A stretch of 63,434 nucleotides of DNA, the filler included, from Folioceros fuciformis (taxonomy: Eukaryota): the NCBI GenBank assembly GCA_049999805.1. It is 22 parts of 22 records of this genome, joined end to end, with 100 filler letters (N's around TTAATTAATTAA, not from the genome) between each part and the next. Parts side by side here need not be neighbours in the genome. Positions count along the whole stretch, not along the records: positions 21,010 to 24,214 come from JBNGIO010000655.1; 21 more parts are not named here. One strand, 5' to 3'. The position numbers were made by a program, and so were the translations under genes. Positions 1,793-61,016 of the stretch are shown here, one piece after another. The notes beneath the pieces were generated by a model. That model ran no database searches, was not told where the DNA came from, and worked only from the letters and a program-made list of their open reading frames with translations. Position 1 is the first letter of the stretch; each line of letters opens with the position of its first letter.

Positions 1793-2849
1793 AGATCCTT
1801 GTGGTGGTAGGGCCAGAAGCTCATTGGTGGCAGGTTGTGCTAGAAGTCTAAATAAGTGGCTGGTGACAGCCGGATAGGCTATTAAAATAATATTTCTCAA
1901 GTTAGAGAGAGGTGAAGTCAGAGAGAGAGAGAGGCTCCTATAAGATCAGGTGAGCCTGTAAGAAGAAGGAGTCATTCACTTTTGGGAGTCACTCTATCTC
2001 TTTGTGAGCTCTTGGAGGTCCTCTCTTCATAAGCTCTTGTGGTCTGTCCCTGCTTGGTCTAGGACCTGCAGTGTGTTGCCGGCTGTGCAACGTCTGGTAG
2101 GATCGCAAGCCGTGTGTTGCCGGCTGTACAGTGTCTGGTAGGATCGCAGGCAGCGTGTTGCCGGCTGTACAGTGTCTGGTAGGATCGCGGGCAGCGTGTT
2201 GCCGGTTGTATAGTGTCTGGTAGGATCACAAGGTGTAATGACCAGGGTGAAGGGGCTTGCCCCTAGCTCTTGATTGTAAAGGGTGTGTCTTTCTCTCGAC
2301 CTGTCCACTCTTGTTCCTTGCTTGGTCAAGTGCTGTAGGCCGGCCATGTCTCATGGCGTCTGGTAAGGTTGTGGGGAGGAGATACCCAAGAGGGGAGTGT
2401 GTTCCCTTCTTCCTTTTGTTTGGGGTTAGTCTAGTGACTCTTGCCGGGTAGGAGGAGTCCGTAGGGAAGTATACAAGGTAGTGGTGTCCTTGCTGGTTGC
2501 TAGTAGTTGCTGGTGTTGGTGCTGGAGCGAGAGAGTGAGTGAAGTGAGTGAAGGAAGACGTAGATCTGAGAGGTTAGAGTCGTTGTAGTAACAAGAGTGA
2601 GTTTGTGGGCACCGAGAGAGGTGCAGCTGACCGCCAGACAGCGAGGCCTGTCCTACGCCTGATCGGAGCTGGAGGGGAGCCCTCGAATCCATCATCGAGT
2701 TGATCAAGTCCGACCCTCCATCCACAGCAGCAAGGAACCCCATCGCTCCTTCGTGGGAACGAAACCCAATGTCTCAACGACAGTGGGATAAGTGTGGCCA
2801 CTAAAGGTGGAACCCATTGGCAATCAGTGCCCGGGGTTTTGCCTCCACA
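1793..2849 (+). mobile_element. LTR family A (Athila-like), 3' part, inserted into a Ty3 RT
   Basis: Near-identical to reverse-strand copies at 20363, 27229 and 34556 and to a diverged copy at 43804 that abuts a tRNA-Asp PBS. Ends ...GCCTCCACA, has CCTATAAG (TATA-like) near 1937, and about four 40-42 bp tandem units at 2072-2230. Confidence 0.85.
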
Positions 2850-5500
2850 TACCAGATACGGGTTAAGGAAGGGGATGAGCACAAGACAGCATTCAAAACC
2901 CGCCATGGCCACTATGAGTGGGTGGTGATGCCCAGGGGGCTCACCAACGCACCAACAACCTTCCAGTGCCTGATGCAGGACATCCTCCGGCCGTTGTTGG
3001 GGCAGGGCGTAGAAGTGTTCCTCGACGACATCCTAATCCGTTCTGTAGATGTAGAGACCCACATAAACCTGGTTAGAGCTGTTCTATTACTCCTACAAAA
3101 GCACCACATGTTAGCCAAGAGGAGCAAGTGCACCTTCATGTGCAAGGAAGTGGACTACCTAGGACACATCGTCACGAGGGATGGCATCAGGATGGACCCC
3201 CGCAAGGTCCAGGCAGTCACAGCATGGCCATTACCCACAGACATCACCCAGCTCAGAGGGTTCCTGGGACTTGCAGGATTCTACGGCCAGTTTATCCAGG
3301 GGTTCAGTAAGATTGCTTTACCCCTGACCGACGCCTTGAAACAGCCCCCCAGCAAATCTTTCAATTTGGATGCAGCAGCACAACTAGCCTTCACCCAATT
3401 GAAACAGGCTCTGAGCTCAAGGCCGGTTTTGGAGGTGGCAGATCCCAAGGGGATCTATCATGTGCACACAGATGCACCAGATCTCGCCCTTGGGGCTGTT
3501 CCGTCCCAGGAGGGACGGGCGATTGCCTACGAGTCCCACAAGCTCCAGGGAGCACAAGTTAATTACCCAATTCATGACAAAGAAATGCTTGGCATCATCC
3601 ATGCACTCAAGGTTTGGAGACATTACCTACTAGGACAGAGGTTCACAATGCACACGGATCACCATTCCCTCCATCACTTCTTCACCCAACCCAACTTGAA
3701 TGCACAACAGCGGAGGTGGTCAGAATACTCAGCTGATTTTAACTTTGAGATTAAGTACATCACTAGAGCCTCTAACTTGGTAGCAAATGCCCTCAGCAGG
3801 CAAGCTCTCACTCTGATGACCTCTCAACTAGATACCATCAGGCTCGTCCGAACAGCCATCCCAGGAGATCCACACTTGCAACACATCAACCAGCAGTTAG
3901 TACAAGACACAGCAGAAGGCATTCCCACAGCTTTCATGCAGACTTACCAACTCAAAGACGCTTGTGTTTACAAGAAGGGTCAACTAGTGATTCCTCAACA
4001 GCTGAAGGAGACCCAGAGAGGGATCCTGCATGATCTACACGACTCTCCCATCTATGGACACCTAGGTATCGACAAAACCTATGATCGGGTGAAAACCCAT
4101 TTCCACTGGGAGGGCCTGCGAAATGATTGCATATAGTGGGTCAGAAGTTGCACCTCCTGTCAACAGACAAAACCAGAGCATCAGAAAACACTAGGGTTGT
4201 TGTTACCTTTACAAGTACCTGACGGAAGATTCCAGTCCACCTCCATGGACTTTGTGACTACCCTTCCCCGCACTCGTACAGGAAAGGACAGCATATGGGT
4301 GGTTATGGACAGAATGTCTAAGTGCTGCCATTTCATTCCAGTAAATTCCAACGTTACAGCTCCACGAGTGGCCAACATATTCACAAAGGAGATCTTTAGG
4401 CTTCACGGGTGCCCCCAGAATATTGTCTTAGACCGGGACCCCAAGTTTATAGCAGGGTTCTGGCGATCCTTCACCGAAACCCTGGGCATCCAATAGAGCT
4501 TGTCCTCCACATGCCACCTCGAGTCAGATGGTCAGACAGAGCATCAAATCCAAGTGCTTGAAGACATGCTGCGGCATTACACACAAGACAAGCAAGGCAA
4601 GTGGGAGGAACTCTTACCCCTCCTCAAGTTTGCCTACAATAGCTCCAAGCACGCTGCCACAGGAGTATCCCCCTTCAAATTGCTATATGGCGAGAATCCA
4701 CCACCACCCGGACTCTGGCCAGCTAGCGAAGCCAAGTGGAGAAGTGCAGCCGAGGTTGCAGAGGTCATATGGCATGAGGTCCACAAGGCCAAGCAGAATC
4801 TCCTGTCAGCTCAAGACCGGGCCAAGAAATCGAGCAACAAGCACAGGCGGGAAATCTCCTACAGCATCGGACAACTGGTGTGGTTGTGAATCCACCCTCA
4901 CAGGTATCCATCACTTCTCCAGCAAAAACACAAGTTGGCGTATCGATTTGCAGGACCCTTCAAGATCTTGTGCAAGGTCAATGAAGTTGCCTACACACTA
5001 GAGCTAGAGCTGCCTACCGAACGGCGCATGTGTCACACCTTCCATGTGAGTATGATGAAGGTAGTGATCTAGAGACCTGCCCAACTCAACCCGCCGCCAC
5101 CTGCAGACCCCGCCACTCAAGACAGTCTGGAAGCCCTAGCCGCCACAGACAGTCTTGCTACTCCACCAGCGCAGGACGTCTCTCCAAGCTCTCCCACGAC
5201 AACCAACCCGACCACTAGACCCCCGGTATCAGTTACACCCCCTCACCTAGAAAGCACGACACGGAAGCGGAACAGATCAGCCCGCCATCCCTAGCTCGAC
5301 GACCTTGTCCAGCCCGACAGAATCCTGGAGGTACGCACCTGTCACCTCAGAAACCGATCTGTCCGTGATTACCTAGTTGGATGGAGCCAGGAACCAGACT
5401 CTTCTGCCACTTGGGAGCCAGAAGATGTCTGCAGACGAATTCCCCACCTTAGCCAGCAGCTGGAGGCCCTGGAGGACCAGGCCTCTTGCAGTGGGGGAGA
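2850..5500 (+). mobile_element. Ty3/gypsy chromovirus pol (RT-RNaseH-integrase-chromodomain), decayed
   Basis: KTAFKTRHGHYEWVVMP, VFLDDILI, RNase H HTDA..AYESHKL, integrase HDSPIYGH..C..C, SMDFVT, DRDPKF, DGQTE, GPF motif, then chromodomain-like PDRILEVR..YLVGW..ATWEPE (about 5310-5425). Contains in-frame stops. PPT GTGGGGGAGAA precedes TGTTAC at 5502. Confidence 0.93.
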
Positions 5501-10895: not shown

Positions 10896-12174
10896 TCCTC
10901 CAAGTGTTCCAAATGTGACTCAAAGTCCACACTGTGCACAAGGACGTCATCTATGTTGCACAATAGGTTGACTGACCCAGCCAAAACTATGTTCATAACC
11001 CTCTGGAAGGTGACTGGAGCATTCTTGAAGCCAAACAACATCACGAGCCACTCCCACAGTTGCTGTGATCCGTAAAAGGCTGTCTTTTTTATGTCCTCCG
11101 GTGCCACTGGCACTTGGTTGAACCCTTGCCTTAGATCCAGTATGGAGAAGTAGACAGATCTGCTGATGTTGTCAAAGATCTCCTCCGGTGTAGGCATAGG
11201 GTACCTGTCCTAGGGTGTCATGGTGCTGATAGGGCGATAATCGCCACACATTCTCTTCTCCGTCCATAAGCCATGGCTATCCTTCTTGGGTGGCATGATA
11301 GTCGCAGCAACGTAATCAAAACTGGAAGGTCTGATTAGCCCTACCTCACATAATTCCTTGCACCTCGCATCCACCATCTCCCACTCAGATTGACTCAGCC
11401 AATACCTTCTACAATATATGGGCTCCGGGCTTGTGAGGTTAATCCTAAAGATTGTGACGTTGCAGCGTTTCAACTCCTTCATGGAGAACGCGAAGCAATC
11501 ACTGTACTTGAGAATCAATGCCCGAATCTGCCTCTGTTGTTCATCAGTGAGCTGTGGTCCCATGTGCCAGTTGAACGTTTCAGCAATGAGTGGCACCTTG
11601 GTTGATGGCTCTTGCCTCACATCCACCTTGAAGGTCGATGCAGAAAAAACAGAGTGGTGCCAAGCAGCATACTCCCCCCCTCTTGCATCGAGCCTGAAAG
11701 GTAGGCAAGGATAGCCAAGGAAAGGTAGGTGCACTGCATCTGCTGGACAAGCCATGGCTACAAGGCCTGCAAGGGTGCCTCTGGTTAGCAGTTGGAAAGC
11801 CAAGCATAAACTCGCAAGCTAAGTGATGGCGTGCAAGTCCATAGCTCGACCGATAGCAACACAGCGCTGAGAGACTGTAACCTGCAGTGCTGCCGTGGCA
11901 TGTGCTGGAAAGCCCATGATCTGCTCACGCTCCTCAACGTGGGGCTCTTCCCATTCCTTTGTGGTGGTGTTGTATAGCAATCCGTGATAGGCAAAGGAGC
12001 CAGGAAAGCTCACCAGGGCAGGCAATGTTTTGCGAGGCTGACTAGGTGTGTTGATTGGATGCTAGGGTGGTCGCTCACTAACAACCACAGGCCTGGGTTC
12101 ATGATCTGCATCCAACACATCTTGCAGCTGCAAGGTGGGATCCCGCTTCGTATTGCGAAGCACGAGTGCCAAGA
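10896..12174 (-). mobile_element. Ty3 pol fragment: C-terminal half of a C5 DNA methyltransferase in frame with RT
   Basis: One frame (ORFs starting 12025, 11803, 11197) broken only by stops: ..EEPHVEEREQIMGFP..QRCVAIGRAMD (motifs IX/X-like), linker, then RT KKD..WTEKRMCGDYRP..DRYPMPTPEEIFD..LDLRQGFNQ..KTAF..FGFKNAP..NIDDVLV. Confidence 0.85.
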
Positions 12175-12274
12175 NNNNNNNNNNNNNNNNNNNNNNNNNN
12201 NNNNNNNNNNNNNNNNNNTTAATTAATTAANNNNNNNNNNNNNNNNNNNNNNNNNNNNNNNNNNNNNNNNNNNN

Positions 12275-13849: not shown

Positions 13850-14620
13850 CACACCATCCCCTCCTAGCCTGAAGGCATAAGATTGCGGTGTGCTCATTAG
13901 AGTTGGCCATGCCCTTCTGGCTTCTCCTACTCAATTCACAAGATAAAATGGCAACTTGTCCATCCGCTTCACCTGTTGTGAGCACCTGTCCAACTCAAGG
14001 ATGTCGTCCACGACCTTCTCCTACGAAATCATCAAATTCCTATGTTGCCTAAGCACCTCTAATCTAGCCACATTTGTCCAATAACTGCGAAGCTTGTGTG
14101 CATATGAGCCACACTACACTGCGTTCATGATTAACTCGTTGCCGAACCATGACCGAATCTCCTCATACAGAGACCTGACAGCTGGACGTTTGTCCATGGC
14201 TGCACACACATTCACCAAAATGTACCAGCATCGTGGATTCGCAATCTCGACTTCTCGCACAATTTGTGCAAGCTCAGCAGCCAACAAAATGCCTTCACCT
14301 TTGTCTTTGCTTGTTGTCGAAAATGTCTTGCATTCCCATCCTAGGACCAATATATCCACCGGACTCAACAAGGCTTCTAGCTGCTGCTTGCCCACCAGGT
14401 TCATGTCTGTGGGCAGCCTGCTATGGCAACCTCAAACTACTTCCTCGCTCAACAGCATTGGGTACTGCTTACAAGACCTAAGAATTTGGCTGCTAGCCAC
14501 AGCCCGAGCCTTCTCGTCCTTCTCCACGTAGGTACATTTGCGTACCTTGACGCCACACTACAACACCGCTTCCAGGCCACTACCGATTCCTAAGTAGAGC
14601 TCCAACAGATGGATGCCTTC
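13850..14620 (-). mobile_element. C5 cytosine methyltransferase domain (motifs I-VIII plus variable region) inside a Ty3 polyprotein, decayed
   Basis: Single frame with stops: GIHLLELYLGIGSGLEAVL (I), YVEKD (II), VDILVLGWECKTFS (IV), WYILVNV (VI, ENV with one substitution), NAV*CGSYAHKLRSYWTN (VIII). Same frame as the upstream protease. Confidence 0.85.
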
Positions 14621-17162
14621 AGCACCCACCTTCCATCATACTAGAGCATCATTGATGCGTTGATCTTCTGCCTTGGCAGGCCTCACATTTGGGATCAACC
14701 TCTCAAGACATGTGTCTATAAGATTCCACAGTCAATTCTCCTTCCTTCCCTGGTTTTTTCGAACCCTAGCTTCATCCAAATACTCTGAACGCACAACCTT
14801 CAGCACACACTTCTGCTCTCTTGGCTTCAGCATGTCCAGAGAGGATAACTCTTGCGTTTCCTCCCACACCTCATGTTGATGCTCACTCTGAGCATTGTGG
14901 GCAATCACGGCGCTACCTGTCATTCTTATCCTGCTCTTCCCACCACTCCTGTTCATCCTTAGGGGAATTCATGCAACATGCGTGAAATCTCCTCTCCACC
15001 AGAAGGGTCTGTAGAAGGCTTCTGCGTGCAAGGGATCAACTCCCATAGCAGGACAATGAGTTCCAGCCGACCCTAGCAAGACATCATATGTCTTTGCACT
15101 GGTGACCAAACATCTCACTTTAACAATGCTGGCGTCCTTCGTGCCAGGCTTCAACTCAATCTTCACGGGCTTCCTCGTCATTCCCAGCACCTGTTCCTTG
15201 GTGCTTGTAGAGGTGGTGATGTTCACATCGCTCAGAACGAGCTTGTGCGCTTCAGTGCTTCCTGCCCTCGTGCTCCCTATATCTACTAGGACGTTTACTG
15301 GAGCATAACCATCAAAGTTATGTGCCTCCTAGTGTTATCAATGATGGCAACACCTCCTTCACCTCGCTCCTCTAGCATTAGGTGATCTCCACACAACTTG
15401 GCCATGCGAGGAACAGATCCTACGGATTCAAGCTCCTTCCTCAACCATTCTCACATGATGTTCTTGAAGTTGTTGCCCTTCACACCCGGATCCATGATAC
15501 TTACTGTAGGCACCTCCATGGCCTTGTCCAGCAACACCTCAATGTCTCGACCTGGTCTTGACACCTTCTGTGTTGTGGAGTCCTCTTCGGCCTGGCAGAA
15601 ACTCTCCGGCATCTTGGTCAATTCCCGCTCTAGCACTTCCTTCGTAGTGACGCCTTCACGAAAGTCCACAACAACCTTTTTCTTCTTCTTTTGCACTACC
15701 ATCATGCCAAATGCCCCATCTTCATCAGAGTCAGAGAACAAAATTTTTTTGCCCTGCATTCGGGTGATGAGGAGCACTCCCCGAGCAAAGTCCAGAGGGC
15801 TAGACTCAGGGCCGGTCTTTTTCTCTCCCGAGTGCGGTACACATGCTTTGTAAGTACGTAGGCAGGGGTCCCCTTAGTATTGTAAGAGACCATCACTATT
15901 AATCAGAATCCTTTTCTTCACGAAAAAAATAAAATAAAAAATTTGCCCTGTCCTGCTGGCCATGTTGGCCATCTCCTTCTTGAGCTACTCCACCTGCTCG
16001 AGAAGAGCCTTGCGACTTGGGCGCTTGCTCTTCTCCTTCTCAGCAGATGCAAGCTTGGGCTTCAGCTCTGGGTGAGCTTCCCAACACGCTGCCTCCATGT
16101 GACCCCATCCGCCACAAGACTTATAAGCTTCCTTGCTCTTCGGACTACCTGGCTTGTAGTCGCACTCAAACACCTTGTGCACTCCACGGCATTTGCCACA
16201 CTTCACAGCTGCTTGGCCTGCATTATTAGCTGGCCTCTCCTTCGGCACATGTGGCTGCTTGCCATGTCCTGAGGACTGTGCCTACTCTCGATACTGGTGT
16301 CTTGGGACAAACCTAGAATTCCCGTGTCCTCCAGACCCGTGGTGCAAAGGGGTCTTCACGACTCCGTGATCCTCCAAGTAAGCCTGGCTTACTGCATCAC
16401 CTTTGAGCATCTTCTCAACAATCTGGTAAGCTTCTATCAACTAGTACTTCTCTCCCATCACTCCATGTAGCGAGTCCATCACCTTCCTTCTCTCTGCCTA
16501 GCAGGCAATGCTCCCTTGAAGATCTCGGTGGCCTCCCTCATTGTCTTGACACCCGTGTCTTCTACCGGAACCTTCAATATGAGGTAAGACGCATGCGATG
16601 TCTGGTTAGGCTGAAAGAAAAGCTCGATAGTTCTTGGACCTTTTCCAGCGAAGCTATAGGAAACATGATGGTTAGCTTGGTGAACATCAAGTCCATTAGA
16701 TGCTTGAGCTTTTCTTCGTCAGTGGGGGTGTTCTCAAACCAGCCTTCTTGGCTGCCTCGTGCACTGCCTTTCTTCTCTCGGCCACCTTTAGGATCTCAGC
16801 CTTCTCATCTCTGTAATACATCAAAGCCTCATCATCATGAATGCCATCCTCTGAGTGAACTCATCCTTGTATTTCATCTTGCTTTCTGTCATTGCCCAAC
16901 GGAACTTCTCCTCGAAATCTGCAAGAGATATGCTTCCATGTTTTCCTATGAAGACATCGTTCTTACTTGGTGTGAACTCAAGCTCCATTTTTGTGGACTC
17001 TCTGCTCCAATCCCTGAATTGTCTCCTTGTGACTTGTGCGTCGTCTCTGTGTTGTTCCGGTGTCCTCTTGAATGGTGAGTAGTAGACGTCGTGCACTTCT
17101 GCGACTGAGGACGGTGCAGGTGTCCTCTCGTTAGTCCACCTTGACCTCAGGAATACCATCAA
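14621..17162 (-). mobile_element. gag (two zinc knuckles), aspartic protease and linker of the DNMT-bearing Ty3 element
   Basis: CGKCRGVHKVFEC and (C>Y)KSCGGWGHMEAAC near 16085-16200. Protease VLVDIGS (DTG with ACA>ATA) near 15280 and YDVLLG near 15080. Confidence 0.75.
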
Positions 17163-20909: not shown

Positions 20910-21868
20910 NNNNNNNNNNNNNNNNNNNNNNNNNNNNNNNNNNNNNNNNNNNNTTAATTAATTAANNNNNNNNNNNNNNNNNNNNNNNNNNNNNNNNNNN
21001 NNNNNNNNNGGGGGCGCGAGATGCAGCGCGTCGGTTCACATCTGGATTGCCTCACCTGCCTGCTCTCGATTGTTGCTACTCCCTTGCAGCGGAAGGATCT
21101 AGTAAAGGCTGTCCAATCCTGATGAAGTAGGTAAGCCCTCCAAAACTTGGCTGAGAAGTTTTGCAATCTGATGGGCGCTGGTGCAGGTTTTATCAATTTT
21201 TGTAAAGTAATGCAGAGCTCGCGATGCACACACAAAGCATAGTTTTTATTAAGCAAGTAATGCCTACATATATGTCCAACCGCTGTGAAACGGTTATAAC
21301 TGAAATTAAACCTATTAAGTAATCTACTTGGTATAACCTAATGTTACATAATATATATCGTATTATTTAACAATTTTTGGGGATTCACCACTTCGAGGAT
21401 TCGGAGCACGGCCTTGGGTGTTGATCCTAGAGGAAGCTTGAAAAGACAACAAGCTGGACATTAATCTTTCCACACGGCTGAGGGTGTTTTGTGACCTGTC
21501 CAGAATCTTCCTCAGCCCCTTCAAAGAATTGATGTCAAATTTGTACTTGCGCCTTGCAGGTGCTTCGCGCACTGTGGGATGTTGCACCACGTTACATACG
21601 TGGCTCACAGGGGCGCAATGACCGCAGACGTAGTGCGCGTCGGAGGGGCCTCCACGCTGCGTAGGTAGAGACCAACGCAAATTGGGGAGGGTTTGCCATC
21701 GGGCGCCTACGCTTCTCGGGGTGCGCGCAGCCTCAAAGGAGAGATGCGCTGTATGACCAGATAGTTGACCTTCAGCAAAGGGTTCCCTGAAGGGCCTACA
21801 TCCGTATCTGCCCCTAGAAGATGCGCGTCTCGGCATGATTCCAGAATTCCTCTAGGTGCATCAGCATG

Positions 21869-22102
21869 GCTTTGATACCATGTGAGAGATGTGATCTAGG
21901 GAGTAGAATACAAATTAAATACTTTTGTTCACATGAGAATGTCTTGCAATAATGATAAATGCCATCAACCACCCTTATTAAATAACTGCCTACTTGTCAT
22001 GCGAAACGGTCTACCATCCACGCCGTTCCGACGGCCGCATCGTTTCAGCTGGGTTTAATTAACATATTATTTTTATGCCTAAATGCATTATATATCCTGA
22101 CA
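21869..22102 (-). mobile_element. Short LTR (about 21881-22102) with tRNA-iMet PBS
   Basis: GCTTTGATACCA (reverse complement TGGTATCAAAGC) abuts TGTGAG; candidate other end ...CCTGACA. Confidence 0.55.
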
Positions 22103-22199
22103 ATTGAGACCCATCCTAATCCCCTTCAAAGAATATTATATAGAAAACCTCATTCATGTATATAAACACCCTTGCAAATTTATCGTGTGGTTAAGTGGA

Positions 22200-22370
22200 C
22201 TTATGGTACGAGAGAATGGATTCTTATCTCAAGAAGTTGGGGTTCATCCAAGGTGAAGCAAATACTAACATCTATGTACTTCGTTAGGATAGCTCACTTG
22301 TACTTGTTGCCCTATATGTCGATGACTTAGTCATTCCAGGCAATAATGTTGATTTGGTCAACAAGATAAA
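22200..22370 (+). mobile_element. Ty1/copia RT fragment
   Basis: WYERMDSYLKKLGF..IYV..ALYVDDLVI. Confidence 0.8.
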
Positions 22371-23232
22371 ATGGTGCACACACATAAGAGAGCTCTGAGA
22401 AAATATTGCTTGGTAATTGATAAAATGAGTGGGATAGAATGTTACCTTTCCTTACAATGGTTTATAGGATGAGTAGACAAGTGTCTTTGGGGAAAGTTTT
22501 CACCTTACATGTTATTGTTTGGATGAAGGCCACATTTGTCTAGGATGGCAGCAAACAAGGTGGACACTGTTGTGAAGTTGGATGACCCCAATCAATGGTT
22601 AAAGATAATCAGGCATAGAGCAGAGTTGTTTAAGAGGGTTATGCCTATGGCGATGGATAACTTGTTGATAGCTCAACATAGGGATGAGTTGAGATATAGG
22701 AAAACAAGGAGTGGTCATTTCAAACCTAAAATGAAATTTGAAATAGGGGATTATGTGTACTTGCAGAGAAAGACGTTGACAACTATTGACACAAGTGCTA
22801 GTTGGATAATATTGAGGGTGAGGAGTGTGAAGCCAAATGGAGTCTTGGAGCTTGAAGGGAGGGATGGTACAACTTGTTTGGAACACATGAAAAACTGTGC
22901 ACTGTGTCATTTGCCTCACTTGAACCGGGCGATTAATGTTCAAGCTTTCATACCAAGGGATTTGCTTATACGGGATGTGGAGATCCGAGTAGTAATCAAT
23001 GCATGTTGTTATGTGATAGATGCAATGATGGATGGCACATCCTCTATTTGGAACCGCCATTAGAGGCGATGCTTGATGGACAGTGGTTTTGTCCAATGTG
23101 TGTGACAATTGATACATTGTAAGAAGAACATTATATTTTGATTGAGGTAGATTGAGGATGATGTGTGTAATACATTTTATGAGCATTTTTGTTTTGCCAA
23201 CAAAAGTTGGGCAGTAAATTAAGGGGGGGAGG
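22371..23232 (+). mobile_element. Ty3 integrase C-terminus with a PHD finger, followed by a PPT
   Basis: KRALRKYCL, FSPY.LLFG, NLLIAQHRDELRY..FEIGDYVYL..LRV..GVLELEGRDG..NCALCHLP. An alternative frame at 23003-23105 gives MLLCDRCNDGWHILYLEPPLEAMLDGQWFCPMC (PHD). PPT AAGGGGGGGAGG precedes TGGTGACCCT at 23233. Confidence 0.85.
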
Positions 23233-23425
23233 TGGTGACCCTAAGATGTATTATGTTTCACTCATCGAGGGAGAGGGAGCAGAGAAGCTGCTCCTTGAAG
23301 TGAATCGATCTCGTGTGAAGTGAGCCACCAAAGAGTGGAATGATGACCAGTAGCCTTGGTGTGCACGACGGGGAAGAAGCACTCAAGGGGAGGCATCTAC
23401 GTATTGCTAGTTATGATCACCCACT

Positions 23426-24130
23426 CACATATCCAGCAGCCAACACAGCCTCTAAACTAGATGCAATCCCAGCAAACAGCTCAACCATGACCAATCCATA
23501 CACAGATGAACTCAAAGTTACAAGTCTATTACAAATAGGTTAAAGTTTACAAATTGCTTCCATTGTACAAGGTTGAATCTTATGATCTAGCTAAAACTCA
23601 GTCTGTCATTTTTCAAGCTCTCTAAGAATTTCAGCTAATGCTCTACCAATACTTGCTCTCATTGAATCCTCCTCCAGTTTGATGTTACTACACTCTTTAA
23701 AGCACAACTTACACATATGACTCATAATCCACAATCTATCCTCTTCATCTTGTCCTTCTAGGGAAGTCGCCATATTTACTATGCATGCATCTTGCCCATC
23801 CTCTTGCAACTGCAACTTGAGCGGAATTGTTGTAAAGTTCATCCCATCTCATTGTCGCCAACTTGCACGATATTAAAACTCCTTTGTCCACAAATCCACC
23901 CCTCCTTCTGGCATAAGCAAGCTTCTGTTCCTAAGATAACATCAAAGTTTCCAGATTTAACAATTAAACACTTTATACCAATTGTAGTCTCTTCCTTTGT
24001 GCAAGGCTGAAGACATACTTGCAGTTTTCCTTAGTCTCCCCCATCATTGCCTTCAGACCCCCATTGGCCATTCTAATTTTCCATCTTGTTTCTTGTATAT
24101 CTCCTCTTCTCAGCCCTAGGAATGACTATG
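23426..24130 (-). mobile_element. Third DNMT-bearing Ty3 fragment: protease C-terminus, linker and DNMT motif I
   Basis: LQPCTKEETTIGIKCLIVKSGNFDVILG..GVDLWTKEF*YRASW aligns with the protease at 14969-15226. GLVMVELFAGIASSLEAVLAAG (23497-23432) is in frame with ORF 23606..23842. Confidence 0.78.
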
Positions 24131-24314
24131 ACGTTTAAGGAACAAACCCAGTAAGTCTCACTGCAACGACTAATCAGGAGTGGTACCTCGAGGTATGCAC
24201 CTAGACCACAGCATNNNNNNNNNNNNNNNNNNNNNNNNNNNNNNNNNNNNNNNNNNNNTTAATTAATTAANNNNNNNNNNNNNNNNNNNNNNNNNNNNNN
24301 NNNNNNNNNNNNNN

Positions 24315-29859: not shown

Positions 29860-30535
29860 ATCTGATGGGAGTGATGATGAGCCAGCTTACCATCTGAGAA
29901 GTAGGACCGTTCCACGGCGACCTTGGGTACCTCGGCAGAGGGCACAACGTCAATGGACTGCCAAGCCTACTTCACCACAGCAGAGACCAAGTGAGGAGTG
30001 GAGTGATCGCCACCCTAGCTAGAGTGTCACATACCAGAGTAGCATTGGGGAAGTGCTTGGACCTGCTAGGGCAATAGGAGTAAGCTGGTCGCCGCTGTCG
30101 AACATTGTTTAGGCTGTAGGTGGAGACACAAGTTCGGAGGAAAAGGAGTCCGAGGAGTTTGACACTATGGAGGGATCGGGAGCACCTGTTCACAAGTCTG
30201 AAAAGTTCTATGGCAGGCTAGGGACGCAGACCCTCAGGGATTTCAAGTTGTTCTCTGGCTTCTTAACCAGTCACGTTAAGTTTAAGCATGGAGCTAGCTG
30301 CTTATACCCATAGGTATATGTTTGAACAGCTACCTGGGTATCTAGCTGATGAAGCTCTAGACCCGTTTGAGATTCATGCACCAGAAATGTTGGCAATGGT
30401 AGAAATGCTCAACCCTGCTTACACGGCAGCCCTTCAAGTGGCATACAATAGTTTGTTGGCCACTGCGATGGCCACTCACCAAGCAGGGATTGCAGCTAGC
30501 ACTATTGCCACATCAGTCCCACCACCTACGGTAGT
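29860..30535 (+). mobile_element. Degenerate gag-like N-terminal region
   Basis: YHLRSR motif, KFYGRLGTQTLRDFK, FEQLPGYLADEALD; frameshifted. Confidence 0.4.
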
Positions 30536-35472: not shown

Positions 35473-36298
35473 CTGAGCTTGACCTCGAGCTCCACCAAAT
35501 GGACGTGAAGACTGCTTTCTTTACGGCAATCTAGACGAGGAGGTCTACATGAATCTGCCTAAAGGCTATGTCAGCAAGCAACACCCATGCAAAGTCCTAA
35601 GGCTGAGAAAGTGTATCTATGGCCTTAAGCAAAGTGGCTGTGTTTGGTACACCACCATGCACGCCTACCTCCTGAGTGTCTCTTTCACCCAGAGCACAAC
35701 CGACGGCAACGTATACAAGTTGTCTCAAGGCCCCCATTTTGTGATCCTTGCTCTCTATGTTGACGACCTTACTCTTGCAGCAAACAACTCCGAAATGCTA
35801 GCAGAGGTCAAGCAACTCCCGAGCGCTCACTTCAAAATGAAGGACATAGGTGAACTCCAATTTTGCCTTGGCATACAAATCCTTTGGAACATGACAGAAG
35901 GAAGATTGGTCATCCACCAGCTGAAGTACATCAACGAGATACTACAAAAGTTCAAGTTGGATCAAGCCAGGTCGGTATCCACTCCCTATGCCGTGGGCAC
36001 TAAGCTCACAGCCAACCAGTGCCCACAGACAGAGGAGGAAGCCAAAGAAATGCAAGGGATCCCCTACCGTCATGCCATAGGTAGCCTCCTCTTTGTCAGT
36101 GGATGGACAAGGCCAGACATCCAATACTCTATCTCCATGGTATCCCAATTCCTAGAGTCGCCAGGCAAGGCACACTAGGCTGCCGTCAAGAGGGTGTTCC
36201 GCTACTTGAAGGAAACCCTAACATATGGGCTTATATACCAAAGTGGAGGAACAGGCAAGCTCTCACTCACTAGTTATACGAATGCCGATTGGGCATAT
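35473..36298 (+). mobile_element. Ty1/copia RT, decayed
   Basis: HQMDVKTAF, IYGLKQS, LYVDDL, FKMKDIG, TRPDI. Confidence 0.93.
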
Positions 36299-53589: not shown

Positions 53590-54978
53590 ACATACCAATA
53601 ATCTCCAGGCGCATATGCGCCCACCTGGTTGACCACATGTCTTGGTGCCTTGGGGCACTCACGGTTGGTGTGTCCTGCATGATGACATATGGAACAGTAC
53701 ACCGACTGCCTAGCCGGAGAGGGGGATCGTCGTGGAGCCTAATTTTTCACCGCCTTGACCTCCAACTCCGTCAACCGCCTGGTCAGGGCCTCCAACTGAT
53801 CCGTGAGGACAACGCTGCCCACGAAGGGACCTCCGCACTCCATCCTATTAGAACTCTTGTTCTTCCTCTCCTTCTCGGCTGCTCTCTCAGAATCCTCCTA
53901 ACGCTTCCTTTCTGCGCGTTTGAGATCCTTCCTCAACCGGCATTGGTAAACGCGGTCGGACTCCTCGTCCGTTGAGTTGCCTGAGATGGTGCTTCCCTGT
54001 TCCGTGTCTAACCTGGAAGAAGACGTAGAGGGACGCGATGGCGAAGAAGAACTGGAGTACCTCGCTTCCTTGACCTTCCCCTGCTCCTTCCTCTTCTTCC
54101 GCTTCCCATACTCAGCCAACTCATAATCTTCTGCCGCCTTCAGACCTTCTTGCAGAGTGATGGTCCCTAGCCGGCACTGGGTGTCCATAGCATCGGGGAG
54201 TCCACTTGCAAACCAATCCAACGCTTGCTCGTCGGAAAAGCCAGGGGTGGATGGACCACCGGGAACGGCTGGCCTGCACCTTGGGACACGCTCCAAGTAT
54301 CCGTAGAACCTTTCTACGTAATCGCGCAGGGACTCCTTCCTTCCTCGGTGTAGGTTCTTCAAATGAGAGAGCGCATGGCTCCCGGAGTTCAAACCCATGA
54401 ATCGCATGAGGAATGTTGCCTTCAAAGCATTCCAATCAGCAGGTGGCACACTTCCGTGGGTCCTGCTGTACCACTGCTGAGCACGTCCTCTCACAGGCCT
54501 GGGAAAATCCTAAGCCTATCAGCCACCGCGTCCTCCAAATTTGCATGGGACACATGCTGAAAGGTGCGAGCAAAAGCTTCTGCATCATCGCTCCTCTTCT
54601 TGTCCCCAAATTTGGTGTACTGCTGACGGCTGTGGAGGTGAACTGCCCCTCCCCTAGCCATGACTGCAGGCGTGCCTCCACTCATGCTGGAAATTCCGGC
54701 TGGATGCAAAATCGGGGTTTCCCGCCCACGACCTGCCGTGGCGGGCTATGCCACTATGGTTGGTGCGACTGGAGTAGGTGGCGTCCTTGCGGATGGAGAC
54801 TCGGGCGCTGGAATAAAGAGGGCCTCTGCGCGGTTCTCTCTCAGTTCTGTAGTGAGTTCTTCCAAAACGTCCCAAAACCGTGTTTCACCTTGCCTTCCTG
54901 GCGTCTCCCGTTCTTCTTCGTTGGAAACAGCAAAGTCTTCCTCCTCCTCGAGGGTATCAGGGCTGGGCGTGAAGGCAA
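53590..54978 (-). mobile_element. Ty3 gag (retrotransposon gag domain and CCHC knuckle), frameshifted
   Basis: RLRIFPGL/RGRAQQWY..DWNALKATFL.RF..ESLRDYVERF; YCSICHHAGHTNREC near 53655-53700. Confidence 0.85.
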
Positions 54979-57071: not shown

Positions 57072-57576
57072 NNNNNNNNNNNNNNNNNNNNNNNNNNNNN
57101 NNNNNNNNNNNNNNNTTAATTAATTAANNNNNNNNNNNNNNNNNNNNNNNNNNNNNNNNNNNNNNNNNNNNGGGGTGCACCAGGCAATGGAAACAGTGCG
57201 ATACCAAAGCGACGCGCGCAGAGCCACGCTGGGAAGCTATCCCATAAGGCTTGCCCCCCAAAAGAAATTAGATTAATAACATGTGGATCGATTCACGTCT
57301 CAGATATTGGCCTGACGAGAACAGATACCACACTTGATCTCGGCCAACAGGCCGAGGAAGGGATGATGCTCTGAGACGAGGGGTTCAGCTGTTATACCAA
57401 AGGCTGGACGGCGGTCGTTTGTTAAGCCATATGGGGTAAATAACTGTTCCGACAAACGCAGATCTCCCCTCTCGCGGTTGTCACATCTCAGATCGAACCT
57501 TGGAAAGCCGTGAGTACTTCTCGCATGGACCACGAGTTACTCCTCAATTTGGAACAGGAACGAAGGAAAGTCTAGG

Positions 57577-59546
57577 CTACTCCCCGGGGAACCTTACCGA
57601 GGCAGAGTAGTTCTTTATCCTACGAGCTTCCTCCTGCCTTGCGGCGATCAACCTTACTTTAGAGACCAACTGCTGAAGAGACTCTGCTTTACCGTCACCA
57701 TCAAAGCCCCTGTAGTCTTCCTCTGCGAAGTCCTCCTGCAGCCCGTCTGGAGGGACGTCTGCCTTTGGGTTTGCCGCGAGCTCTACGGCAGTCACGGTTC
57801 CAGGGTCTCCCTCCCTCTCAAAAAACTTCTCTATTTCCTCTAACGTCTTCCCTTTGGTTTCTGGTACACGGTAGTAGATGAATAAAATGGACAAGCCTGA
57901 AATCACTGCAAATAAGAAGAAGATCCCAGCTGGAGTTATGGCATCTGACAAACTTAGAAAGGAAAGGGCGACCACTCCGCTGACAACCCTGTTAGTTGCC
58001 GTTCCAAGGCCCACAGCTTGTGATCTGAGCCTCAGGGGAAAAATTTCGGATGTCAGCACCCAACAGATGGGTCCCAACCCGATGGAGAAGAAAGACACAT
58101 AAGTGCAAGTGGCCACAATGGCCAGCACAACAGGGAGTCCAATCCCACTCCCAGGTCCTTCAAGCTGCCCTGGCAGCTGAGATCCAGGACCTTGAGACTT
58201 GACGTTGAGAAGCACAAACCCGACAGCTAGGACAGCTACAGAGATAGTCATTCCTGTGGCACTAACAAATAAAAGGGGCCGTCGGCCGACCCGGTCAAGC
58301 CAGATAGTGGCGACCAAAATAAAAGCGGTCTTAAAAAACCCAACAGCAACAGTTGCCCCTAGAATTCCTGACTTGCTGGTGATGCCAGCTTCGTTGAAGA
58401 TAGTCGGACTATAATATACCGTTGCATCGATACCAGAGGCCTGCTGGAAAAACTGAATGCCTAAAGCTACTATGAGCATCCTCCGTACAGCCGGCGTTGG
58501 AAAGAGCAGTTCACGCCAAACACCCTCACCTTGACCTTTCTCTTGCATGCCTGGAGTCACCTGCCACATTTTCCCAGTGACATCCCCCTGGTTGGAACCA
58601 TCCTCCAATTGTACTGACGCATCCAGTCCAGCAGCCGACACTATCTCCTGCAATCGCATGTCTGCCTCTGCTTTACTTGAAGAGGTCTTTACAAGGACCT
58701 CCTCGGCTTCTGCCAATCTGTTTTGAGTTACTAACCAACGTGGGGATTCTGGCATAACCAGCACCCCAGCACCAAGCACAACCGCAGGAATAACCCCCGC
58801 ACCAAGCATCAACCGCCAGCCGAGATGAGTGGGCAACCCTGCAAGTAAGAAACTTGAAATGTACCCCATCAGAATTCCAACGTTGATGAAGATCTCTTGA
58901 AGCGAAACTAGCGAACCCCGAGTTCCAGCAGGAGAAACCTCTGCAGTGTAAACTGGTGCAATCATAAGAGCAAAACCGACCCCAATGCCCGCAATGATGC
59001 GGCCGAGCATCAAAATGGAAAATGAGGGAGCCAATCCCATCAGAGCAGCTCCCACAAAGAAGATGACTGAAGCAACAGCCATCGTCATTCTCCTACCTAC
59101 AACATCCGAAAGCTTCCCAGCCACTCCTGCTCCCACAAGGGATACCAGATTCAAAGAGCCCACAAGCAACTCCACCTGCAGTTTTTTAATATTCAGATCG
59201 TCCTTTATGAAAAGCACAGCACCACTCATTACCCCGATATCTGCACAATACGTTCAGCCAACCAGCTGAATCAATCAACTCTGCTTGCGTTGCCGGTAAC
59301 AAAGTTCTGCATTGAAGGAGGGTTGTCATCAATTCGTATTCAGCGAAGGAACGTACCATAGCCTAGTAGGCTGGAATTGAAGGAGGCCAGCAACGCGCAC
59401 CCCAAGGCATATTTGTTCAATCCCGGAGGTCTGGGACTGGAATTGTGGTGATCTTCAGTCAAACGCTCGTACCCGTTTGTCTGCTTCAGTATGCCGGTGA
59501 CAGAATCCAAAGTACTCGTCGGGCTTCCCACTCCGGCTTCAGCCAT
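57577..59546 (-). CDS. Polyol/monosaccharide transporter (MFS sugar porter, PLT/PMT clade); join of 59357-59546 and 57577-59240, 617 aa
   Basis: NKYALGCALLASFNSSLLGY|DIGVMSGA across a 116-bp GT..AG intron (59241-59356). Motifs SDVVGRR, APVYTAEVSP..RG, MPESPRWL, FFQQASGIDATVYY, DRVGRRPL, SEIFPLRLR, PETKGKTLEEIE. Frame is intact. Confidence 0.95.
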
Positions 59547-60943: not shown

Positions 60944-61016
60944 GCTCCCGTGGCCTAATGGATAAGGCATCTGACTTCTAATCAGGGGATTGCGGGTTCG
61001 AGTCCCGCCGGGGGTG
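60944..61016 (+). tRNA. tRNA-Arg (anticodon TCT)
   Basis: 73-nt cloverleaf: GCTCCCG/CGGGGGT acceptor, GCCT/AGGC D stem, TCTGA-CTTCTAA-TCAGG anticodon arm, GCGGG-TTCGAGT-CCCGC T arm. No strong T-run immediately downstream. Confidence 0.93.

What the first reader, a model, noticed from the sequence alone, without database searches (positions are those of the whole stretch)
23426..24130. Third DNMT-bearing family, with canonical motif I (ELFAGI), missed by the ORF track
Seen: a protease C-terminus homologous to the one at 14969-15226 (LQPCTKE..KCLIVKSGNFDVILG vs LKPGTKD..RCLVTSAKTYDVLLG), a linker of similar length, then GLVMVELFAGIASSLEAVLAAG vs GIHLLELYLGIGSGLEAVL*CG. The DNA is much more AT-rich than the other copy. 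Inference: three divergent fragments among 22 contigs imply an abundant, diversified DNMT-Ty3 clade in this genome.
Basis: partly seen in the sequence, partly recalled or inferred. Interest (0 to 1): 0.75.

Follow-up and report, generated by a model that had tools for sequence, protein, structure and literature searches.

The report
Decayed stub of DNMT3-carrying Ty3 retrotransposon
This is a dead, broken-off piece of a jumping gene of a kind that carries its own DNA-methylating enzyme; only the first 31 residues of that enzyme survive here, so the locus is a fossil that shows such elements once lived in this genome.

Summary
On the minus strand of contig 8 (21010-24214), a retropepsin C-terminus (24024-23917), a 132-residue spacer and the first 31 profile positions of a DNMT domain (23521-23429, VELFAGIASSLEAVLAAGY) lie in line. 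They match profiles built from public relatives at E 8.6e-7 and 3e-6. Twenty shuffles never exceeded 8.9 bits, against 26.0 and 23.8 observed. Relatives of the better copy at 13850-15328 number 564 cluster representatives. The best carry Pfam PF00145 inside Ty3 polyproteins in the order CCHC-PR-DNMT-RT-RH-INT, and their methylase is closest to DNMT3A/3B. In 184 near-complete domains, the motif IV Cys, motif VI Glu and the first motif VIII Arg are invariant (second Arg 183 of 184).

This copy itself stops after motif I, near 23420. It abuts a high-copy 92-bp repeat and the 3' end of an opposite-strand integrase-PHD element. It has at least two frameshifts, six in-frame stops and CpG o/e 0.24, so it is a non-functional relic.

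"Third family" is only partly supported. The copy is far from the 13850 copy (33 of 92 residues identical) but does not overlap the third fragment (11822-12175). Genome-wide abundance could not be tested. The kind is already known as Gypsy-DNMT3 of Klebsormidium.

The parts
23976..24125 (-). Middle part of the retropepsin, in a third reading frame. The match is weak.
   Evidence: PR profile positions 39-79, E 0.45, collinear with the next part. Not significant on its own.
23917..24024 (-). Retropepsin C-terminal part (LQVCLQPCTKEETTIGIKCLIVKSGNFDVILGTEAC).
   Evidence: PR profile positions 69-104, 26.0 bits, E 8.6e-07. Best shuffle score 8.9 bits. tblastn with P0017 gave E 2.6e-04 and with P0010 E 2.6e-04.
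23798..23911 (-). Conserved post-protease segment, reached after a frameshift near 23915. It carries two in-frame stops.
   Evidence: tblastn HSPs linked with the protease HSP: P0015 residues 510-547 (E 5.2e-04) and P0105 residues 61-93 (E 0.001). Read-through.
23522..23797 (-). Variable spacer between protease and DNMT, with three in-frame stops.
   Evidence: Read-through translation. Spacer length is 132 aa against a median of 131 aa in 39 public PR-DNMT proteins.
23429..23521 (-). DNMT N-terminus: first strand, motif I and following helix (VTLSSSVYGLVMVELFAGIASSLEAVLAAGY). This is all that remains of the methylase.
   Evidence: Family DNMT profile positions 6-36 of 339, 23.8 bits, E 3e-06. 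Best shuffle score 8.7 bits. tblastn with P0004 gave 51% identity over 35 aa, E 4.6e-05, and dozens of the 70 HSPs found in 23300-24214 align at this same place.
23398..23428 (.). Junction zone where homology to the DNMT family ends.
   Evidence: Stops at 23417-23419 and nearby. GC skew changes sign near 23400. No listed Logan contig bridges 23334-23456.
23306..23397 (.). Unexplained high-copy segment of about 92 bp lying against the truncation point.
   Evidence: Summed word depth is 1053/664 (bin 23257-23363) and 538/375 (bin 23364-23470), against about 10-30 in most other bins (a few reach 136-240). At 23341, 25 contigs in X1 carry variant letters. Loose ends fall at 23306 and 23397, and joints go back 48-68 bases. 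No Rfam hit, no tRNA, one copy in the window, no tandem array here.
22356..23122 (+). 3' end of an oppositely oriented Ty3 pol: integrase C-terminal domain plus PHD finger, with the stop at 23120-23122. It is 5'-truncated.
   Evidence: Family profile E 2.6e-44 (22530-22955) and 1.1e-16 (22970-23107). Pfam PHD PF00628, E 1.1e-07. tblastn with P0033 gave E 2e-40.
23221..23232 (+). Purine run AAGGGGGGGAGG about 100 bases after the pol stop. It is a candidate polypurine tract of the plus-strand element.
   Evidence: Read directly from the sequence. That it functions as a polypurine tract is inferred.
13850..15328 (-). The reference copy in contig 6: protease, spacer and DNMT profile positions 8-270, with 8 in-frame stops. 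GAG-CCHC lies upstream at 16057-16994.
   Evidence: phmmer found 564 hits at E up to 0.001.
10898..12175 (-). Contig 4: DNMT C-terminal part (profile positions 199-322, motifs IX and X) followed by reverse transcriptase.
   Evidence: DNMT profile E 4.3e-25. Pfam RVT_1, E 2e-15.

Best explanation
Window 23417-24214 (minus strand) is an old, inactive remnant of a Ty3/gypsy LTR retrotransposon. In this element's family the pol polyprotein carries a DNMT3-type cytosine-5 DNA methyltransferase between the protease and the reverse transcriptase (GAG-CCHC, PR, DNMT, RT, RNase H, INT).

Shown:
- The protease C-terminus, a spacer of family-typical length and the first 31 profile positions of the DNMT domain lie in line on one strand.
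- The piece is broken by at least two frameshifts and six in-frame stops.
- It is strongly CpG-depleted.
- The DNMT part ends near 23420, against a high-copy repeat and the 3' end of a converging integrase-PHD element.

Inferred:
- In intact relatives the methylase is translated within Gag-Pol and released or kept fused by the protease. It may methylate the element's own reverse-transcribed DNA, or nearby host DNA, at CG sites. This is the proposal made for retrotransposon DNMT3s in print.
- The copy here lost everything after motif I, through a nested insertion or a deletion. It then decayed, largely by deamination of methylated CpG. It can no longer encode any enzyme.
For: - Profile matches in contig 8 and their controls.
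- Collinear HSPs to public polyproteins.
- Spacer of 132 aa against a median of 131 aa in 39 public PR-DNMT proteins.
- The contig-6 relative found 564 cluster representatives at E up to 0.001, 248 of them at 1e-10 or better.
- Of the 7 best hits scanned, 6 carry PF00145 above Pfam's cut-off. P0012 reads CCHC, PR, DNMT, RT, RNase H, INT.
- The DNMT domain of P0009 is closest to DNMT3A (E 1.5e-08) and DNMT3B, then to plant DRM.
- Catalytic residues are invariant or nearly so in 184 near-full domains.
- Decay: six X in the 165-residue read-through; frame changes; CpG o/e 0.24, TpG 1.30 and CpA 1.30.
- Published precedent: KnitGypsy-Dnmt3 in Klebsormidium nitens, and CG methylation by SymbioDIRS-Dnmt3 in yeast (PMC5890265, passages and section 9 read).
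Against: - Pfam finds nothing in the contig-8 or contig-6 translations themselves at E up to 1.
- PDB sequences give nothing for the contig-6 domain.
- Only 31 of 339 profile positions are present, so DNMT ancestry rests on a short stretch plus its context.
- The protease active-site region is not recognisable.
- No LTR, RT, RNase H or integrase of the same element lies on the minus strand of the contig.
- The junction at about 23400-23430 is not bridged by any listed independent contig, so the truncation could be an assembly join at a repeat.
- KnitGypsy-Dnmt3 itself gave no methylation in the yeast assay. The authors called that result inconclusive. The proposed activity is therefore unproven for the Ty3-borne enzymes.
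Confidence: 0.85

Rival explanations
1. The DNMT is not truly truncated in the genome. Either the plus-strand integrase-PHD element with its terminal repeat is a nested insertion and the rest of the DNMT lies beyond it, or the contig was mis-joined at the high-copy 92-bp repeat.
For: The repeat at 23306-23397 draws at least 25 contigs in X1. No listed Logan contig spans 23334-23456: record 8 starts at 23456 and record 7 ends at 23334. A polypurine-like run at 23221-23232 follows the plus-strand pol stop. The GC skew flips sharply near 23400.
Against: No further DNMT piece (profile positions 37-339) lies on the minus strand to the left, within 21010-22356, at E up to 10. No direct repeat that could be a second LTR is present in the contig. 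The segment right of the break is itself full of stops, so the copy is dead either way.
Confidence: 0.3
2. The motif I stretch is a fragment of a host DNMT3 gene or pseudogene that merely lies next to an unrelated retrotransposon protease.
For: Motif I with Ala in the second glycine position is also the DNMT3A state.
Against: The residues flanking motif I (GLVMVELFAGIASSLEAVLAAGY) match the retrotransposon-borne family profile. Its members, for example P0004, P0127 and P0145, reach 39-68% identity. The distance to the protease equals the family median. No host-type DNMT3 exon follows.
Confidence: 0.03
3. The similarities are due to chance in AT-rich decayed DNA.
For: The individual BLAST HSPs are short, and 163 queries were tried. 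The read-through alone finds nothing in 5.8 billion proteins.
Against: Two independent profiles hit the same strand in the right order and at the right spacing, with 23.8 and 26.0 bits. The maxima were 8.7 and 8.9 bits in 20 shuffles, and 5.5 and 4.8 bits for reversed pieces.
Confidence: 0.01

Closest known systems
KnitGypsy-Dnmt3 of Klebsormidium nitens (de Mendoza et al. 2018, PMC5890265), cited as 'streptophytes (Gypsy-DNMT3)' in bioRxiv 10.64898/2026.05.21.726589
   Same: A DNMT3-type C5 methyltransferase domain lies inside the pol polyprotein of a Ty3/gypsy element in a streptophyte. The DNMT domain order is not rearranged. Key catalytic residues are conserved in intact members (paper section 9; this family).
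   Different: Whether the window's elements are the same lineage is untested, because no K. nitens sequence was at hand. The position of the DNMT within the K. nitens pol is shown only in Fig. 4c, which is not held, and the supplements are closed. The locus here is a dead stub. The named relatives found here are Closterium and Monoraphidium, not Klebsormidium.
Public PR-DNMT-RT Ty3 polyproteins (for example P0012; P0007 = GJP34393.1 of Closterium sp. NIES-68; P0004)
   Same: Same domain order as contigs 6, 4 and 8. P0004 is the nearest protein to both contig 8 (38 of 94 identical) and contig 6 (51 of 106) over the protease C-terminus, the post-protease segment and the DNMT N-terminus.
   Different: Those proteins are open reading frames with a full DNMT domain. 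Contig 8 keeps only profile positions 6-36 and is riddled with stops.
RT-RH-DNMT-INT-PHD Ty3 polyproteins (for example P0011, P0033; P0211 = MNEG_11595 of Monoraphidium neglectum)
   Same: The DNMT domain is homologous. The PHD-tailed integrase matches the plus-strand piece at 22356-23122 in the same contig.
   Different: Here the DNMT sits between RNase H and integrase, not between protease and RT. About 136 of 234 public proteins have this order, against about 46 with PR-DNMT. The minus-strand relic is of the PR-DNMT type.
Mammalian DNMT3A/3B catalytic domain (for example 2qrv_A)
   Same: It is the best solved-structure match to the family's domain (E 1.5e-08). It shares the motif I form LF-x-G-I-A.
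   Different: Before the catalytic Cys, 119 of 184 family members have Glu and 58 have Pro. There are no PWWP or ADD domains. The family enzyme is embedded in a retrotransposon polyprotein.

Membership tests
C5 cytosine DNA methyltransferase (Pfam PF00145, DNMT3-like) | Motif I, the SAM-binding loop F-x-G-x-G, after the first beta strand | tested here: met
   VELFAGIAS lies at 23429-23521 and matches family profile positions 6-36 at E 3e-06. The second Gly is Ala, as in DNMT3A and in 39 of 184 family members.
C5 cytosine DNA methyltransferase (Pfam PF00145, DNMT3-like) | Motif IV with the catalytic Cys (P-C-Q or similar) | tested here: not met
   No match to profile positions 37-339 anywhere in contig 8 at E up to 10. 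The sequence ends in stops at 23417.
C5 cytosine DNA methyltransferase (Pfam PF00145, DNMT3-like) | Motifs VI (ENV), VIII (R-x-R), IX and X | tested here: not met
   Absent from contig 8. In 184 public relatives they are present in 174 to 184 members per key position. They are partly present in contig 6 (E to V in motif VI) and in contig 4 (motifs IX and X).
C5 cytosine DNA methyltransferase (Pfam PF00145, DNMT3-like) | A match to the curated Pfam model | tested here: not met
   0 families for the contig-8 pieces and for the contig-6 read-through. 6 of the 7 best public relatives pass the cut-off.
Ty3/gypsy LTR retrotransposon | Retropepsin with a D-T/S-G active site | tested here: inconclusive
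   The C-terminal half is matched at E 8.6e-07, and the middle part only at E 0.45. The active-site region near 24190-24214 is not recognisable and lies at the contig end.
Ty3/gypsy LTR retrotransposon | RT, RNase H and integrase in that order on the same strand | tested here: not met
   No minus-strand RT, RH or INT match in contig 8 at E up to 0.05. Weak RH-like bits are at chance level, E 26-36.
Ty3/gypsy LTR retrotransposon | Flanking long terminal repeats | tested here: not met
   No direct repeat longer than 28 nt in the 3205-base contig. The contig is too short to hold a whole element.
Gypsy-DNMT3 (KnitGypsy-Dnmt3 type) | A DNMT3-type domain collinear with Ty3 pol domains in one reading direction | tested here: met
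   Protease then DNMT N-terminus on one strand at the family spacing. Relatives with the same order carry PF00145 and are closest to DNMT3A/B.
Gypsy-DNMT3 (KnitGypsy-Dnmt3 type) | Common descent with the Klebsormidium nitens elements | not tested
   No K. nitens sequence was retrieved. Named relatives were Closterium and Monoraphidium only.

The most novel reading that the evidence does not exclude
The stub would be one trace of a large, old and barely described clade of Ty3 elements that carry a DNMT3-type methylase.
- The clade spans chlorophytes (Monoraphidium), zygnematophytes (Closterium) and this streptophyte host.
- The host's polyol-transporter gene looks land-plant-like.
- The methylase has two different positions in pol: PR-DNMT-RT and RH-DNMT-INT-PHD.
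- The catalytic Cys, Glu and first motif VIII Arg are invariant (second Arg 183 of 184).
- Most members have an unusual Glu-Cys in place of the canonical Pro-Cys.
- At least two lineages of this clade, deeply diverged from each other, once lived in this host.
Probability: 0.5. Interest if true: 0.55.

Novelty: new member of a known kind. Interest (0 to 1): 0.3.

Why it matters
The locus itself is a fossil and does nothing. Its value is as a marker.

- Together with contigs 4 and 6, it shows that retrotransposons carrying their own DNMT3 lived in this streptophyte genome in more than one diverged lineage.
- The public hits show the kind is much wider than the single Klebsormidium family found in print. 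There are 564 cluster representatives, and named hosts include Closterium and Monoraphidium.
- Transposons that carry the enzyme normally used to silence them bear on how elements and host methylation systems co-evolve.
- The invariant catalytic residues argue that the enzyme is used. The Glu-Cys variant of motif IV is a concrete feature that could be tested at the bench.

Tried and rejected
- Pfam on the contig-8 and contig-6 translations found no DNMT or protease family.
- PDB sequence search with the contig-6 DNMT read-through found nothing at E up to 1.
- The contig-8 read-through (165 aa, X at stops), searched against longer proteins in the 5.8-billion set, scored nothing at E up to 0.01 among 1193 word-sharing candidates. 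The tool itself rates this as weak evidence.
- A weak tblastn pair at 30130-30277 looked like a further DNMT piece. On translation it is not one, and the family profile does not hit it.
- RNase H-like strings at 23322-23444 (+) and 21014-21151 (-) were seen in BLAST at E 1.2-9.5. They score E 26 and 36 with the family RH profile and rank 12th and 22nd among window pieces, so they are chance. Pfam finds nothing there.
- No DNA-level repeat of contig 8 occurs elsewhere in the window. No tandem repeat lies at 23100-23600. There is no Rfam family and no tRNA at the junction.
- Sequencing runs: no RNA holder is listed.
- Laid contigs give no copy number.
- The gap in listed contigs over 23334-23456 is not evidence of a mis-join, only a lack of confirmation.
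- The DNMT tree places contig 6 beside PR-DNMT proteins P0182 and P0021, but with supports of only 0.0 and 0.33. Contig 8 is too short to place: its identities to all PR-DNMT subgroups are 36-40%.
- The Atlas search of the plus-strand ORF showed only a generic integrase C-terminal domain.
- Earlier findings of this scan: nothing on record.
- Literature searches for other Gypsy-DNMT3 reports found only the two papers cited.
- The supplements and figures of PMC5890265, which hold the domain order and residue alignment of KnitGypsy-Dnmt3, could not be seen.

Full report
**Setting.**
The window is 22 short contigs joined by N spacers. The finding lies in contig 8 (21010-24214, GC 0.427). No whole genome is held for the window, so all work used the window and public collections.

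**Observation.**
- The comparison copy is in contig 6. There the minus strand reads GAG with a CCHC knuckle, a protease, a spacer and then a methylase-like domain up to the contig end at 13850. It has eight in-frame stops over 13850-15328.
- tblastn of that read-through against the window links the two loci in order (E 3.45e-07).

**What the domain is.**
- Pfam and PDB sequence searches see nothing in the window's own decayed translations.
- phmmer of the contig-6 protease-plus-methylase read-through against 1.84 billion cluster representatives found 564 proteins at E up to 0.001, 248 at 1e-10 or better and 9 at 1e-30 or better.
- Of the seven best hits scanned, six carry PF00145 above Pfam's cut-off. 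The seventh, P0004, ends just after motif IV.
- P0012 reads CCHC, protease, DNMT, RT, RNase H, integrase. P0011 reads RT, RNase H, DNMT, integrase, PHD.
- The DNMT domain of P0009 is closest to DNMT3A (E 1.5e-08) and DNMT3B, then to plant DRM and the bacterial enzymes.
- Named members are from Closterium sp. NIES-68, -53 and -54, and from Monoraphidium neglectum.

**Family conservation (184 near-full-length domains).**

| Position | Conservation |
|---|---|
| Motif IV Cys | 184 of 184 |
| Residue before that Cys | Glu 119, Pro 58 |
| Motif VI Glu | 184 of 184 |
| Motif VIII R-x-R | 184 and 183 of 184 |
| Motif IX E-R-E | 180, 174 and 182 of 184 |
| Motif X Gly | 180 of 184 |

At family level that condition is not met.

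**The contig-8 copy.**
- I built profiles from the public proteins and searched all six-frame pieces of the window.
- Contig 8 is hit by the protease profile at 23917-24024 (positions 69-104, 26.0 bits, E 8.6e-07) and by the DNMT profile at 23429-23521 (positions 6-36 of 339, 23.8 bits, E 3e-06). Nothing matches positions 37-339.
- Twenty residue shuffles of all 2813 pieces gave best scores of 8.7 and 8.9 bits. Reversed pieces gave 5.5 and 4.8.
- Between the two hits lies a conserved post-protease segment, reached after a frameshift near 23915.
- The distance from protease profile position 104 to DNMT position 6 is 132 aa. It is about 139 aa in contig 6, and the median is 131 aa (range 65-664) in the 39 of 41 public PR-DNMT proteins that could be measured.
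- The piece needs three reading frames. It has six stops in the 165-residue read-through of 23417-23911.
- It has CpG o/e 0.24 with excess TpG and CpA. The figure is 0.51 for the contig-6 copy and 0.29-0.71 for the 22 contigs.
- It is therefore an old, dead copy.
- Motif I reads F-A-G-I-A. The Ala is the DNMT3A state and occurs in 39 of 184 family members.

**Where it ends.**
- Homology stops at about 23420-23429.
- To the left, on the other strand, lies the 3' end of another Ty3 pol: an integrase C-terminal domain and a PHD finger (22356-23122; E 2.6e-44 and 1.1e-16; PF00628). A purine run follows at 23221-23232.
- GC skew changes sign near 23400.
- Logan contigs of two runs of one sample show that 23306-23397 is a high-copy segment. 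Summed depth reaches 1053 and 664, against about 10-30 in most other bins. Twenty-five contigs in X1 carry variants at 23341, loose ends fall at 23306 and 23397, and joints go back 48-68 bases.
- No listed contig bridges 23334-23456. The truncation may therefore be a nested insertion, a deletion or a join made at the repeat.
- The segment 23456-24214 is covered by one perfect contig in X1, and by two perfect contigs in X2.
- The repeat has no Rfam or tRNA match and is unexplained.

**How many families.**
- DNMT pieces occur in three of the 22 contigs:
  - contig 6, profile positions 8-270;
  - contig 4, positions 199-322, followed by RT (PF00078, E 2e-15);
  - contig 8, positions 6-36.
- Contig 8 against contig 6: 33 of 92 residues identical over the shared columns.
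- Contig 4 against contig 6: 13 of 57 identical, with no DNA similarity.
- Contigs 8 and 4 share no columns, so they cannot be told apart. At least two lineages are shown; a third is possible.
- All three pieces are of the PR-DNMT-RT type. Among 234 public proteins, about 46 have that order and about 136 have RH-DNMT-INT, mostly with a PHD finger. In a DNMT tree the two types largely separate.

**Host.**
- One contig holds an intronless 558-residue polyol/monosaccharide transporter ORF (57580-59253, minus; Sugar_tr E 8.7e-102).
- It is 57-64% identical to bryophyte, lycophyte and gymnosperm proteins, and 71% identical to an unnamed one.
- In a quick tree it sits with that unnamed protein, near lycophyte and fern sequences.
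- The host is therefore a streptophyte, probably a land plant or a close algal relative. I did not narrow this further.

**Comparison with what is known.**
- DNMT3 inside a Gypsy pol is in print for Klebsormidium nitens. The authors reported purifying selection on the DNMT domain, and the yeast assay was inconclusive. SymbioDIRS-Dnmt3 did methylate CG de novo, and the authors proposed self-methylation of the cDNA (PMC5890265; abstract, section 9 and passages read).
- A 2026 preprint refers to 'streptophytes (Gypsy-DNMT3)' (passages read).
- My three literature searches found no report for Closterium, Monoraphidium or land plants.
- Figures and supplements of the 2018 paper could not be seen, so the domain order of the Klebsormidium element is unknown to me.

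**Verdict.**
- The locus is a truncated fossil of a known kind.
- The claims of a third family and of genome-wide abundance remain open.

Noticed in passing
window 23306-23397: A segment of about 92 bp that is highly repeated in the source organism's read contigs. Summed depth is roughly 50-100 times that of most flanking bins. At least 25 variant contigs carry it, and it is tandem-like in other loci. It has no Rfam or tRNA match and occurs once in the window. It lies exactly against the point where the DNMT relic ends.
   Followed up: partly
window 22356-23122 (+): 3' end of a second Ty3 pol, with an integrase C-terminal domain and a PHD finger. Its best matches are public polyproteins of the RT-RH-DNMT-INT-PHD type (E 2e-40). 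Whether this copy carried a DNMT cannot be seen, because it is cut off at about 22356.
   Followed up: partly
public relatives (P0004-P0237), DNMT motif IV: In 184 near-full domains the catalytic Cys is invariant, but the residue before it is Glu in 119 and Pro in only 58. This is a Glu-Cys variant of the canonical Pro-Cys dipeptide.
   Followed up: partly
window 57580-59253 (-): An intact, intronless 558-residue polyol/monosaccharide transporter ORF (Sugar_tr, E 8.7e-102). It is 57-64% identical to bryophyte, lycophyte and gymnosperm proteins. It is the only clear host gene I saw in the window.
   Followed up: partly
window 57170-57364 (-) and 60944-61016 (+): A U2 spliceosomal RNA gene (86 bits) whose 5' end appears to run two bases into the spacer at the start of contig 21 (57172), and a tRNA gene (65.3 bits) in the same contig as the transporter.
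   Followed up: no
window 2805-4847 (+), contig 2: An RT-RNase H-integrase stretch related to the same Ty3 clade, including a 443-residue open frame. No DNMT or PHD match was found in that contig.
   Followed up: partly
window 35483-36175 (+) and 53901-54509 (-): A Copia-type reverse transcriptase fragment (RVT_2, E 9.3e-38) and a retrotransposon gag fragment (E 7.4e-11). Other repeat families share the window.
   Followed up: no
all 22 contigs: CpG o/e is 0.29-0.71 with TpG and CpA in excess throughout. This fits a genome that is methylated at CG.
   Followed up: no
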